Virus record (IMG/VR): IMGVR_UViG_3300030329_004107
Coordinates: 4,328 to 68,327 of that record
Strand: one strand, 5' to 3'
DNA from: a virus
DNA: 64,000 bases
Below the pieces are notes generated by a model. That model ran no database searches. It saw nothing but the letters and a program-made list of their open reading frames with translations, and was not told the origin of the DNA. The translations under genes and the position numbers were made by a program. Numbering within the stretch: the stretch's first letter is position 1; each line of letters begins with the position of its first letter. This document shows positions 49,605 to 52,569 of this stretch, piece after piece.

Positions 49605-50504
49605 TTAAAATAGTTCTAATGCTGCTAATGCTGTAATAGCATTGTCTTTGTGTTTGAGTTCTATATCATAGTCAACAGGCATATCGACACTGAAAGGGGG
49701 TGCGGCAGTAGGCATATCGGCATGACTGCGCGGGTTAGGCTTGTCAGGATGAGATTCGGAGTAGTGAAACAACGGCTTGCAAGGCCAAGTAGCATAGCAT
49801 AGCCGAAACGCTTGGTCTTGAGTAAGGCCGTCAGGCAAGCACTTGTGGTGCAAATTGTCGTAAGTAATTGGAATATCGAAATGCTCTGCAAGTAATTTGG
49901 GAGTCCAGATACCCTTGTCCTCGTTCTCTACGACGAGCCGTTGCTGAACGCTCCAGTTACACTTGGCAAGATTAGACATGAAACGTGCAGCGATGTCAGC
50001 GGGGTCGCCTTTGGTATTATTGACATGGATATTGATAGGAGAACGATAATCACGGGGCGCACCTAGCATATCCATGAGACAACCATGAAAATCAAGTTCT
50101 TTGATAGTTTTAGCTACATTGTGCTTGCCTTCGCTTGCAAGCACGTTGAACTGGTCGGGATGACAAGATACACGAATAGAAAAAGAGGCGATAACACTAG
50201 CACAAGTTTGCAAAACCGACATGATCTCATCGTAGTCTGGATAATCACGCAGTCGCAACGCAGCAACCTCGTATGTAAGGAGCGGAAACAAATTAGAACT
50301 AACACGATAACCCCAACCCTCGTCAGCGCATTGCTGGAGAACCTTACGCATAACGTGAATATTGTTGAGTGTACGCGCAGATAAAGTAGAGATAGCATCG
50401 TCGCGGTCAAGCTGCGAAAAACGATGCCAAGTCATCGTCTGAAACTTGTAGCCCTGCTCTGCTAACGAATTAGATATGCAACAAAGATTGTAAGTGCCGC
50501 GCAT
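49605..50504 (-). CDS. uvsE: UV-damage endonuclease UvsE
   Basis: YRVSSNLFP, SCHPDQF, INIHV, LVVENED, YDNLHH, FHYSES, HAD, ELKHK. Confidence 0.92.
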   Translation of the reverse strand: MRGTYNLCCISNSLAEQGYKFQTMTWHRFSQLDRDDAISTLSARTLNNIHVMRKVLQQCADEGWGYRVSSNLFPLLTYEVAALRLRDYPDYDEIMSVLQTCASVIASFSIRVSCHPDQFNVLASEGKHNVAKTIKELDFHGCLMDMLGAPRDYRSPINIHVNNTKGDPADIAARFMSNLAKCNWSVQQRLVVENEDKGIWTPKLLAEHFDIPITYDNLHHKCLPDGLTQDQAFRLCYATWPCKPLFHYSESHPDKPNPRSHADMPTAAPPFSVDMPVDYDIELKHKDNAITALAALELF

Positions 50505-50536
50505 GAAAACTAATATAGCACACACTTTAAATCTTG

Positions 50537-50953
50537 TCAAATGAAATCTTCATCATCTTCGTCGGATTCTTCATCTTCTTCGTGATCGGTTAGAAGCTCT
50601 TGGAGCAGTTCTTCGGTAGCTTCTCCCGCGCTAAAGCCTTCGGAAACATTAATCTCATCAGATTCTTCTGGCTCGAAATTAAAAACGTATTCGTGAGCTT
50701 CGGTTAAAATTTTGAAGGAGACTTCTTCTGGTTTTAATTCCACAGTCGATTCAGAGATGGAATTAAAAAGACAATCGTGACACAAAGTAACTACGGCGAT
50801 AGGTAATTCAGATGAGCTTACTAAAAAATAAGCTATTTTAAAATTTTTATATAAAAGCTGGCAATCTTTTTTACTATACTTTACGTCACAAGCATCACAG
50901 CAAAGTGACCGCGCTCTTATTTTATCTGGATAAATTAATTCCGCACATAACAT
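50537..50953 (-). CDS. Hypothetical Cys-containing protein with acidic tail
   Basis: CDAC...CHDC. Confidence 0.5.
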   Translation of the reverse strand: MLCAELIYPDKIRARSLCCDACDVKYSKKDCQLLYKNFKIAYFLVSSSELPIAVVTLCHDCLFNSISESTVELKPEEVSFKILTEAHEYVFNFEPEESDEINVSEGFSAGEATEELLQELLTDHEEDEESDEDDEDFI

Positions 50954-50971
50954 CCTACCATATATTACACT

Positions 50972-51334
50972 TTATTGGGGCGGGGATGGAAATATGCCTT
51001 GCGGCGGCTGCTGCGCGTATGGATTTTGTTGCGGCGGCGGCATTTGTTGCATTTGCTGTTGCTGCATTTGCTGTTGCATCGCCGCCATTTGACGCTCTTG
51101 AGCCATCCGCTGTTCTTCTTCTTGCTTCTGGCGTTTTAAAAATTGAATTTTATTTTCTTCAGCCTTTTCAAGTAAGAAAATTCGTTCTTGCCCTTTGTAG
51201 CTTTTGGCTTCTTCCCAAGAAAATCCCAAAAAAGTCACCATTTCCCAGTTATCTTCATAACCACGGCGAGGATCGAGGCCGTTGGTGCGCGGTTTTTTAG
51301 TGGTCTTTTTCTTATTTGCAATCTTTTCAGTCAT
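50972..51334 (-). CDS. Gln/Pro-rich hypothetical protein
   Basis: Low-complexity QQQMQ/PPQ tail. Confidence 0.55.
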   Translation of the reverse strand: MTEKIANKKKTTKKPRTNGLDPRRGYEDNWEMVTFLGFSWEEAKSYKGQERIFLLEKAEENKIQFLKRQKQEEEQRMAQERQMAAMQQQMQQQQMQQMPPPQQNPYAQQPPQGIFPSPPQ

Positions 51335-51389
51335 ATTTTTATTATACCTTTGATTATTTTATTTGGCAAACTTTTATTAGTAAATTTAA

Positions 51390-51815
51390 TTGAGTAGGTC
51401 ACGGCGCAAACCTTGCGAGGCAGTCTTTAATAGTCGTAGCCTAACCTTAAAGACTTTTTTATGTTTGTATGTCCCAAATTACCTCTCGGTTATCGCTACT
51501 ACTCAAATTTTAAATTAATGGGTAGGAGGAGTCTCATTTACCTCCATCTTTTCGGGGTTGTAGCTTGAGTTTCAAGTCAAAACCCTACTTTGAGCCAACC
51601 CTCATCAGCCCCCAGACTTGGTGAGTCCTGCCAATGAGCATTGCACGTTAACTGCCACAACAGCAGCTTATTCCGTCATACCCTTTGTCGCTCCGTCGAG
51701 CAACAAAATTGTTTCGCTTGCACCTTTTCGGCTAAATATGTAAGTTTTACCCAAAAAACCAAACCTTATTTCTTGTTTTGTGTTTTTTCTCCTTATGGAG
51801 AGCTTACATACTTCA
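51390..51815 (-). ncRNA. Candidate large structured ncRNA (GOLLD/ROOL-like class suspected)
   Basis: Gap with no convincing ORF and many stems: ATGTAAG/CTTACAT, TTGTTGCTC-GACG-GAGCGACAA, CTGCTG/TGGCAG, TAGGGTTTT...AACCCC, GGAGG/CCTCC, TTGAGTAG/CTACTCAA, AGTCTTTAA/TTAAAGACT, plus GNRA tetraloops. Family not confirmed. Confidence 0.6.
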
Positions 51816-52221
51816 TTGTGCATCCCAAGATGCAAGCAAATTTATTTTAAAGAACAAATTAAGAGCTTGTAAGCTCCATCACGCGAGCCATTAACTCGTC
51901 GTGGCTATAAGAAGTAGATTCTTCTTGTTGTCTGCTTTTAAGAGTGGCGTAACTACCATCTTTATTTGCAATATAAACATGAGAGGCTTTCCGCACAACT
52001 CTATCATCTACTTGATTATCTGAATTATTATTAATTACAATCATCTTATTTCCCTTTCTTTAGTAATCTTTTACGTTCTCTTTCTCGTATTCTGCGAATA
52101 AGCCTAGAATCTTCGTGAACCACTTCGAGGGTAGCGTTATTGCGGACATTTTGATCGGGCATAACGCCGAAATCCTGTATATGGACAACGCTCATTGGTA
52201 TGAGTTTCTGTTTCATTTTTT

Positions 52222-52569
52222 TTAAAGAATAAATATTTTATTTCCTTCTAGGAAAAGTTTTAAATTATAAGTTTTATCAATTTTTTTACCAGTTTTTACA
52301 TCAGTAAGAACCACATCGTGACGTTTATCCATCGTCATAGCAACTTGATGTTTCCACTTTGGTCTTGGAGCTTTCTTTTCTTCCAAGCTTTTAACTTCAT
52401 TTAAATCTACCGCGCCCTTTAACCAACCGCCTTTTTCGAGACAAGAGAAAGTCATATTAAAAGCGTGACTTTTCTTTAGTCTTTGCCTTTTATTTCTACT
52501 GTATCCCTCCTTAAAGCCCTTTATTTGGATGGACTTTTTCTTGGGAATGTATTTCGCTATTACAGTCAT
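52222..52569 (-). CDS. Basic hypothetical protein
   Basis: ORF. Confidence 0.45.
   Translation of the reverse strand: MTVIAKYIPKKKSIQIKGFKEGYSRNKRQRLKKSHAFNMTFSCLEKGGWLKGAVDLNEVKSLEEKKAPRPKWKHQVAMTMDKRHDVVLTDVKTGKKIDKTYNLKLFLEGNKIFIL

What the first reader, a model, noticed from the sequence alone, without database searches (positions are those of the whole stretch)
51390..51815. ~425-nt highly structured ORF-free segment: candidate large phage ncRNA
Seen: in a gene-dense region this gap has nested stems (ATGTAAG/CTTACAT, TTGTTGCTC-GACG-GAGCGACAA, GGAGG...CCTCC). It also has a self-contained 3' domain closed by TTGAGTAG/CTACTCAA that holds ACC-GAGA-GGT, AGTCTTTAA/TTAAAGACT and a GCAA-capped hairpin. 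It lacks tmRNA or RNase P signatures. Established: large ornate RNAs such as GOLLD and ROOL occur in phages and have unknown function. Inference: this is a member of such a class or a new one.
Basis: partly seen in the sequence, partly recalled or inferred. Interest (0 to 1): 0.78.

Follow-up and report, generated by a model that had tools for sequence, protein, structure and literature searches.

The report
manA phage RNA with two add-on hairpins
The gene-free stretch is real folded RNA on the minus strand, but it is three separable modules: a known phage RNA called manA in the middle, flanked by two hairpin domains that no RNA catalogue lists.

Summary

It is three modules, not one 425-nt RNA:
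- **manA core (51515-51705):** a full-length match to Rfam manA RNA (RF01745), 52.8 bits against a cut-off of 55.2, E 1.5e-12. 10 of 16 scored homologues reach the cut-off. 19 pairs show compensatory change.
- **"F" (about 51714-51839):** a 5' long hairpin found in 6 distinct sequences, with 14 compensatory pairs.
- **"K" (51386-51514):** a 3' hairpin found in 12 distinct sequences. It has an invariant kink-turn-like internal loop and a variable tip. A near-identical strain lacks it exactly.

Neither F nor K matches anything in Rfam 15, and there is no GOLLD or ROOL match.

Context argues against a riboswitch for the downstream gene. That gene has its own near-consensus promoter 6 nt before its ATG. 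manA follows one conserved 115-aa gene in 33 of 39 relatives. Two metatranscriptome contigs cover only manA.

A 2026 preprint reports that manA RNAs self-assemble into cages in vitro.

This scan has noted enlarged manA-like RNAs on other DNA before. Function remains untested.

The parts
51515..51705 (-). manA RNA core (Rfam RF01745). It has a P1 hairpin, a closing helix (GGGUA/UACCC), internal multi-stem domains and a terminal GGAGG/CCUCC hairpin.
   Evidence: 52.8 bits (gathering 55.2), E 1.5e-12, model positions 1-192 of 192; 34 distinct homologues, 98.7% of cells paired, 19 pairs with a change on both sides against 10.6 +/- 1.4 in shuffles (0 of 500) and 1-3 in slid controls.
51657..51660 (-). 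Loop UUGU of the second hairpin, the 5' half of a candidate pseudoknot (or intermolecular) pairing with 51558-51561.
   Evidence: helix 5: 4 pairs, 100% paired in 34 sequences. The window and L247 have UUGU/ACAA where 31 others have UCGC/GUGA, so two pairs changed on both sides.
51558..51561 (-). ACAA, the 3' partner of the candidate pseudoknot.
51714..51839 (-). Module F: a 5' accessory long hairpin. It sits inside the A/U palindrome that otherwise directly precedes manA.
   Evidence: Six distinct copies (window, L161, L165, L247, L252, L335). 34 pairs, 95.5% paired, 14 pairs with a change on both sides against 5.0 +/- 1.6 in shuffles (0 of 500) and 1-4 in slid controls.
51386..51514 (-). Module K: a 3' accessory hairpin. 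P1 is 51499-51506 with 51390-51397. The internal loop is invariant: UAGCGAU at 51492-51498 opposite CGCCGUGAC at 51398-51406. P2 is AACC/GGUU. The interior is window-specific.
   Evidence: Twelve distinct copies, all next to manA. P2 contiguous pairs average 4.25 with the cognate partner and 1.58 with non-cognate partners. P1 varies with compensation (GAGUAG/CUACUC, GAGCGA/UCGCUC, GAAUGG/CCAUUC, GAGCGG/CCGCUC); a DNA contig of run X4 joins 51385 to 51515, skipping exactly these 129 nt, with 5 letters that fit either side of the joint.
51842..51857 (-). Conserved 16-nt motif TTGTTCTTTAAAATAA just 5' of the RNA. In most relatives it holds the last codons and the stop of the 115-aa gene. It contains a -10-like TAAAAT.
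   Evidence: one exact copy in the window, plus a 2-mismatch copy at 52217-52232 at the end of the 115-aa gene; present in front of manA in nearly all relatives. CTTACA-N18-TAAAAT scores 9 of 12.
51862..51877 (-). Terminator-like hairpin at the end of the upstream 61-aa ORF.
   Evidence: 6-bp stem followed by a T-rich tail. This is a consensus match only.
51341..51369 (-). Sigma-70-type promoter TTGCCA-N17-TATAAT. Its -10 ends 6 nt before the ATG of the 120-aa gene, so a leaderless message is inferred.
   Evidence: 11 of 12 matches. A similar arrangement is seen in front of the homologous gene in L236.
50972..51334 (-). Downstream 120-aa gene of unknown function with a Gln-rich tail. The same family follows manA arrays in L236, L250/L272 and L173.
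52222..52569 (-). Conserved 115-aa basic protein gene, the usual immediate upstream neighbour of manA in this lineage. Here two small ORFs (51859-52044 and 52046-52216) separate it from the RNA.
   Evidence: 46% identity, E 3e-30 to the L163 homologue; 33 of 39 loci have manA directly after this gene; the gene lies further upstream in 5 of the other 6.

Best explanation
The segment is a modular non-coding RNA locus on the minus strand of an uncultured marine phage.

Shown:
- The core (51515-51705) is a member of the manA RNA family.
- It is extended at the 5' end by a long hairpin (F). At the 3' end it carries a hairpin (K) whose only invariant part is an asymmetric internal loop.
- All three parts are conserved as structures. 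They occur in different combinations in relatives.
- K is absent in a near-identical strain, so it is a dispensable add-on.

Inferred:
- The RNA acts as a product in its own right and is not a switch for the next gene. It is tied to the upstream 115-aa gene, not to any particular downstream gene. The downstream gene has its own promoter.
- The manA core probably works through its three-dimensional fold and self-association, as the in-vitro cages suggest.
- F and K are peripheral parts. Either they are processing or protective hairpins that define and stabilise the ends of manA, or, for K, a kink-turn-type site for a protein or a tertiary contact.
For: **manA identity.**
- Full-length RF01745 match.
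- Of 16 subclade copies scored, 10 reach the gathering score.
- Covariation is strong, including a candidate pseudoknot in which the window itself carries the compensated variant.
- G-U pairs fit only the minus strand.

**Modularity.**
- F is found in 6 distinct sequences and K in 12.
- The same F-manA-K order is found in a diverged contig, L335.
- Other relatives have manA alone or with other modules.
- Run X4 has a contig with K precisely missing. That contig has 0 differences in the 344 nt of F plus manA against 9 in 371 nt of flanks (Fisher p = 0.004).

**Against a switch for the next gene.**
- TTGCCA-N17-TATAAT lies 6 nt before the ATG.
- Downstream genes differ between loci. In many relatives the RNA array ends in an intrinsic terminator followed by a TTGAAA-N16-TAnnnT promoter.
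- manA directly follows the 115-aa gene in 33 of 39 loci.

**Presence in RNA libraries.** Two RNA runs from two studies (X17, and X18 which was DNase-treated) each hold one short contig at 99% identity or more. They cover only manA, at 51544-51694 and 51553-51708.

**Self-assembly.** The preprint 10.64898/2026.07.01.735769 reports 8-, 10- and 60-mers of manA RNAs in vitro.
Against: - The window copy scores 2.4 bits below Rfam's curated cut-off, and 6 of 16 homologues also fall below it.
- No transcript ends are known. The RNA evidence is two short assembled contigs, which cannot show strand, ends or level, and DNA carry-over cannot be excluded.
- In at least 5 relatives (L159, L165/L197, L195, L216, L286) a start codon lies 5-9 nt after manA with no room for a promoter. 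That fits a cis role there.
- There is no terminator between K and the 120-aa gene in the window, so read-through would make the RNA a 5' leader.
- The cage result is in vitro only, at high RNA and Mg2+ concentrations with a 50 deg C step.
- The kink-turn reading of K rests on sequence inspection alone, and the P1 register beside the loop is ambiguous.
- F rests on only 6 sequences.
Confidence: 0.6

Rival explanations
1. Classical cis-regulatory leader. manA, with K as part of an expression platform, senses a ligand or condition and controls translation or read-through of the downstream 120-aa gene.
For: - Rfam files manA as cis-regulatory, and the original description put it in potential 5' UTRs (PMC2864571, passages read).
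- It has the same orientation as the gene, with no terminator between them.
- In at least 5 relatives the next start codon lies 5-9 nt after manA.
- The 120-aa gene family recurs after manA arrays in L236, L250/L272 and L173.
Against: - A near-consensus promoter lies between the RNA and the ATG.
- The 129-nt K module between aptamer and gene is absent in a near-identical strain without other change.
- Downstream genes are heterogeneous small proteins of unknown function, not one pathway.
- Linkage is to the upstream gene.
- In many relatives a terminator plus a new promoter separates the RNA from the next gene.
Confidence: 0.2
2. F and K are selfish or neutral insertions. They would be miniature inverted-repeat-like DNA elements, or products of recombination at short A/T repeats, with no RNA function of their own. 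Only manA would be functional.
For: - K is a precise presence/absence polymorphism with 5 letters that fit either side of the joint. I read these from the sequence as the repeat ATTAA.
- Both modules are bounded by inverted repeats.
- F sits in the middle of an A/U palindrome.
- Modules swap freely between loci.
Against: - Stems change by compensation while the K internal loop is invariant across 12 diverged copies whose interiors are unrelated. That points to selection on a folded strand.
- F has 14 compensated pairs, including G-U pairs that fit the RNA strand.
- K and F were found only beside manA in about 2 Mb of fetched loci. Two further pattern matches (L333, L334) are not beside manA and look like chance hits in coding sequence.
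Confidence: 0.15
3. One integrated large ornate RNA of a new class, or a GOLLD/ROOL relative. All about 450 nt would fold and act together.
For: - The three parts are separated by linkers of 10 nt or less, with no promoter or terminator between them.
- The same tripartite order recurs in L335.
- The whole minus strand folds better than shuffles.
Against: - There is no GOLLD or ROOL hit at E <= 10.
- The centre is manA, which occurs alone in most relatives.
- K is dispensable in a near-identical strain.
- I searched for covariation only within the manA core, not between modules.
Confidence: 0.05

Closest known systems
manA RNA motif (Rfam RF01745; Weinberg et al. 2010, PMC2864571)
   Same: Full-length covariance-model match. 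It shares the conserved GGG..UGAC.GAAUAA start and the CCUCC.ACCCA end, the same helices with covariation, and the marine phage setting.
   Different: The score is just under the curated cut-off. The phage is not a cyanomyovirus by its terminase (at most 25.6% identity to any cultured phage among the 12 rows listed). The RNA carries 5' and 3' accessory domains and follows a conserved 115-aa gene. It does not precede a metabolic gene.
Cage-forming manA RNAs (bioRxiv 10.64898/2026.07.01.735769; abstract and passages read)
   Same: Same Rfam family.
   Different: The constructs tested there are other family members under 200 nt. Their sequences and loop numbering are in supplements that I could not open. 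I could therefore not check whether this copy keeps the kissing loops, or whether F and K would point in or out of a cage.
GOLLD and ROOL large phage-associated RNAs
   Same: Phage-borne, highly structured, of unknown function.
   Different: No covariance-model match at E <= 10. This locus is shorter and built of separable modules.
Kink turn with an A-U pair at 2b-2n (Kt-23 of T. thermophilus; PMC2790904, abstract read)
   Same: The invariant K loop can be written as follows: C-helix GCG/CGC with C-G at the -1 position, the 3-nt bulge CGU, then G-A, then A-U, then the variable helix P1.
   Different: This is sequence inspection only. An extra C (or a C-A pair) follows, and no structure or protein partner is known.
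PeSL-type terminator-plus-early-promoter cassettes of T4-type phages
   Same: In relatives the RNA arrays end with a stem-loop whose U-tract overlaps the -35 of a TTGAAA-N16-TAnnnT promoter.
   Different: In the window itself there is only a promoter, without a terminator, downstream of K.

Membership tests
manA RNA (RF01745) | Covariance-model score at or above the curated gathering score (55.2 bits) | tested here: not met
   The window copy scores 52.8 bits, E 1.5e-12, over the full model 1-192. Of 16 subclade homologues, 82-91% identical where measured by blastn, 10 reach 55.2-60.4 bits and 6 do not, one of them truncated. I still file it as a member, on homology to copies that pass and on the structure tests below.
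manA RNA (RF01745) | Family secondary structure kept by compensatory change | tested here: met
   54 pairs, 98.7% paired, 19 with changes on both sides (shuffles 10.6 +/- 1.4; slid controls 1-3).
manA RNA (RF01745) | Pseudoknot (marked 'pseudoknot?' in the original figure legend) | tested here: inconclusive
   A 4-bp loop-to-strand pairing is 100% kept, with 2 compensated pairs carried by 2 of 34 sequences. I could not confirm that it is the same pairing as in the published figure.
manA RNA (RF01745) | Location in a potential 5' UTR (cis-regulatory) | tested here: inconclusive
   The RNA is upstream of a gene and co-oriented with it, but that gene has its own promoter 6 nt from its ATG. Linkage is to the upstream gene.
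manA RNA (RF01745) | Self-assembly into closed oligomers | not testable with these tools
   Reported in vitro for other members.
GOLLD / ROOL | Match to the family covariance model | tested here: not met
   Neither family is among the 7 matches at E <= 10 on 51200-52000 or among gathering-level matches on the whole window.
Kink turn (for module K) | 3-nt bulge followed by G-A and A-G (or A-U) pairs between two helices | tested here: inconclusive
   The sequence fits with A-U at 2b-2n and C-G at -1 in 11 of 12 copies. The L229 group has CCCC for CGCC. No three-dimensional or binding test was possible.

The most novel reading that the evidence does not exclude
In this marine phage lineage manA would be a self-assembling scaffold RNA, made together with a dedicated 115-aa basic protein. 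It would carry interchangeable payload domains at its ends: F, K, and at least five other recurrent modules in relatives. A multimer would then display many copies of, for example, a kink-turn protein-binding site. That would make it a natural RNA particle that recruits or sequesters a host or phage protein, not a riboswitch.
Probability: 0.1. Interest if true: 0.85.

Novelty: new variant of a known kind. Interest (0 to 1): 0.5.

Why it matters
manA has been an orphan "riboswitch candidate" since 2010. This locus and its roughly 50 relatives give concrete handles on it:
- a conserved protein-gene partner upstream;
- downstream genes that change from locus to locus and have their own promoters;
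- accessory RNA domains that come and go between strains;
- RNA-library contigs that hold only the core.

Together with the in-vitro cage report, this points to a stand-alone structural RNA and suggests simple tests. Those tests are end mapping, assembly of the core with and without F and K, and binding of the 115-aa protein or of kink-turn-binding proteins.

The flanking modules are also candidate new RNA motifs for Rfam.

Tried and rejected
**Searches for relatives that found nothing useful**
- blastn of the 524-nt gap against 50,697 phage records gave no match.
- The search for related loci with the 120-aa protein in viral contigs gave no relative.
- The 39 UvdE-based loci did not carry the RNA beside UvdE. 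Only L105, which is the same contig as L014, matched, and it did so elsewhere on that contig.
- nhmmer of the F and K parts against the first 157 loci and the window's own genome found only the window's own copy.

**Rfam matches and scans judged to be chance**
- Rfam sub-threshold hits were rejected as chance: AaHKsRNA20 on the + strand (30.3 bits against 43), two miRNA families, DGCR5 and RT-17. They lie in A/U-rich or variable parts, some on the wrong strand.
- The genome-contig scan with the 17-mer gave 45 hits in unrelated taxa. None holds manA by nhmmer. I estimate about 70 chance hits for a 17-mer in 596 Gb. This gives no clue to the host.
- The K pattern scan gave 4 hits. Two are real (L160, L335). 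Two look like chance hits in coding sequence (L333, L334).

**The 115-aa protein**
- It has no Pfam or PHROG family.
- The AlphaFold model is all-beta, with pLDDT 72.7 and pTM 0.64.
- Foldseek against PDB gave best E 0.16, with weak rows apparently from ribosome large-subunit chains (one labelled L24).
- VIA-align wide gave best Z 2.4.
- ESM Atlas gave scores of 0.85 or less.
- No fold assignment follows from any of these.

**Other ideas and limits**
- A sigma-70 promoter inside the conserved 16-nt motif fits moderately in the window (9 of 12). By my inspection the -35 is poor in most relatives, so this stays undecided.
- P1 of K: a lenient cognate versus non-cognate score hardly separated (6.25 against 5.66). 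The case for P1 therefore rests on the listed compensated variants.
- Parts without RNA-contig cover (F, K and the genes) in X17 and X18 say nothing, because these are contigs.
They may hold manA gene contexts and construct sequences that bear on the cis/trans question and on the loop contacts.

Full report
**What is there.** The genes around the finding are all on the minus strand. The 120-aa ORF lies at 50972-51334 and a 61-aa ORF at 51859-52044. The 524-nt gap between them holds only mechanical ORFs of 69 aa or less. The minus strand folds at -146.7 kcal/mol (z = -3.84; 0 of 100 shuffles fold as well). That is better than the plus strand (z = -2.59).

**The core is manA.** At gathering thresholds the whole window gives only a tRNA. 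A sensitive Rfam scan of 51200-52000 gives a full-length match to manA RNA (RF01745) on the minus strand at 51515-51705. The score is 52.8 bits against a cut-off of 55.2, with E 1.5e-12 and model positions 1-192 of 192. GOLLD, ROOL, tmRNA and RNase P do not appear, even at E <= 10. The record is a 68-kb IMG/VR virus fragment, 39% complete by CheckV, with one manA copy. Its terminase is 25.6% identical or less to the cultured phages listed, and all 101 matching records are under 60%. This is therefore not one of the cyanomyoviruses in which manA was first described (PMC2864571, passages read).

**Homologues of the core.**
- A 17-mer from the core found 13 viral contigs, 10 of them true copies.
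- nhmmer then found 62 copies in 287 loci. These reduce to 53 distinct flank contexts and 34 distinct full-length sequences (alignment A1).
- Of the 16 copies scored with Rfam, 10 reach the gathering score.

**Covariation in the core.** On A1 the structure is 98.7% paired. 19 pairs changed on both sides, against 10.6 +/- 1.4 in shuffles (0 of 500) and 1-3 in slid controls. A loop-to-strand pairing, window 51657-51660 with 51558-51561, is kept in all 34 sequences. The window and L247 carry UUGU/ACAA where 31 others carry UCGC/GUGA. Invariant G-U pairs fit only the minus strand. One-nucleotide indels between subtypes exclude a conserved reading frame.

**The 5' part, module F.** In most relatives manA is directly preceded by TTGTTCTTTAAAATAA followed by TTTTG. 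In the window, L161, L165, L247, L252 and L335 a hairpin of 110-135 nt sits inside that A/U palindrome. The six distinct copies give 34 pairs at 95.5% paired. 14 pairs changed on both sides, against 5.0 +/- 1.6 in shuffles (0 of 500) and 1-4 in slid controls.

**The 3' part, module K.**
- Twelve distinct copies, all right after manA or after another module that follows manA, share one design.
- The design is: helix P1, then an invariant UAGCGAU, then helix P2 with an unrelated interior of 35-112 nt, then an invariant CGCCGUGAC (with minor variants), then the return strand of P1.
- P2 covaries: AACC/GGUU, GAGU/ACUC, AGGCU/AGCCU and AGGU/ACCU. Contiguous pairs average 4.25 with the cognate partner and 1.58 with non-cognate partners.
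- P1 has compensated variants, but a lenient score did not separate cognate from non-cognate partners.
- The invariant loop can be written as a kink turn: a GCG/CGC helix, the bulge CGU, a G-A pair, then an A-U pair. The A-U variant has a precedent in Kt-23 (PMC2790904, abstract read). This is inference from sequence only.
- The hairpins inside the window's K (ACC-GAGA-GGU and the others) are not shared with other copies, so they are untested.

**Modularity.**
- Neither F nor K has any Rfam 15 match.
- The same F-manA-K order recurs in the diverged contig L335.
- Other relatives carry manA alone or with other recurrent modules.
- A DNA contig of run X4 is nearly identical to the window but joins 51385 to 51515. 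It lacks the 129 nt of K exactly, with 5 letters that fit either side of the joint; from the sequence I read these as the repeat ATTAA. That contig has 0 differences in the 344 nt of F plus manA and 9 in 371 nt of flanks (p = 0.004).

**Context**
- The 120-aa gene has a TTGCCA-N17-TATAAT promoter whose -10 ends 6 nt before the ATG. The homologous gene in L236 shows a similar arrangement. There is no terminator between K and that gene.
- In relatives the downstream genes vary. Many arrays end in an intrinsic terminator overlapping a TTGAAA-N16-TAnnnT promoter.
- At least 5 relatives have a start codon 5-9 nt after manA. This result counts against my reading.
- Upstream, 33 of 39 loci with enough flank have manA immediately after a conserved basic 115-aa gene. 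In 5 of the other 6, including the window (52222-52569; 46% identity), that gene lies a few hundred nt further upstream.
- The fold of this protein could not be assigned.

**Expression.** Of five RNA runs with small word shares, I laid three. X17 and X18 come from two studies, and X18 was DNase-treated. Each holds one short contig at 99% identity or more that covers only manA, at 51544-51694 and 51553-51708. X16 covers part of the 120-aa gene. Contigs cannot show strand, ends or abundance, so this is a weak hint that the core exists as RNA.

**Literature.** Earlier notes of this scan pointed to a 2026 preprint, which I found and read in part. It reports that manA-family RNAs under 200 nt form octamers, decamers and a 60-subunit icosahedral cage in vitro through kissing loops. 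It gives no in-vivo data. Its construct sequences are in supplements that I could not open, so I could not map those contacts onto this copy.

**Verdict.** This is the known manA RNA in a new, extended, modular form. It is most likely a stand-alone structural RNA tied to an upstream 115-aa gene. F and K are dispensable peripheral domains whose roles (processing or protection, or a kink-turn-type binding site) are inferred, not shown.

Noticed in passing
L117, L240, L267/L184, L173; L105, L252, L235/L277, L198, L281; L174, L178, L172, L281; L236; L166, L202, L211, L182, L225, L192 (flanks of manA): At least five more recurrent structured modules follow manA, or in L173 precede it, in related marine phage contigs. 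None matched Rfam 15 at E <= 0.1 in the 20 loci scanned, or at E <= 1 in three more (L105, L117, L073); not every locus named here was scanned. One (in L105, L252, L235, L198, L281) shares the AUAG...UGAAC flavour of the K loop.
   Followed up: partly
window 52222-52569 (-) and homologues in 23 loci: A conserved basic all-beta 115-aa protein with an invariant PRPKWK motif. It is encoded immediately upstream of manA in 33 of 39 loci. It has no Pfam or PHROG family and no significant structural match, and is a candidate partner of the RNA.
   Followed up: partly
window 51341-51369 (-); L236, L105, L160, L163 and others: Small early genes after the RNA arrays have near-consensus sigma-70 promoters whose -10 lies 5-13 nt from the start codon. 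The messages would be leaderless or nearly so. In relatives the -35 overlaps the U-tract of the preceding terminator.
   Followed up: partly
window 51842-51857 and 52217-52232 (-): The 16-nt motif that normally ends the 115-aa gene is present twice: once (2 mismatches) at the gene's end and once exact in front of the RNA. It brackets the two inserted small ORFs (56 and 61 aa). L162 shows the same duplication. This may be a recombination junction.
   Followed up: no
window 49605-50540 (-): A UvdE-type UV damage endonuclease gene (Pfam PF03851, E 2.6e-32) lies two genes downstream. Homologues occur in 39 viral loci.
   Followed up: partly
L073 1055-1128 (-), L198 449-522 (-): tRNA genes lie within 2-3 kb of manA arrays in two related contigs.
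   Followed up: no
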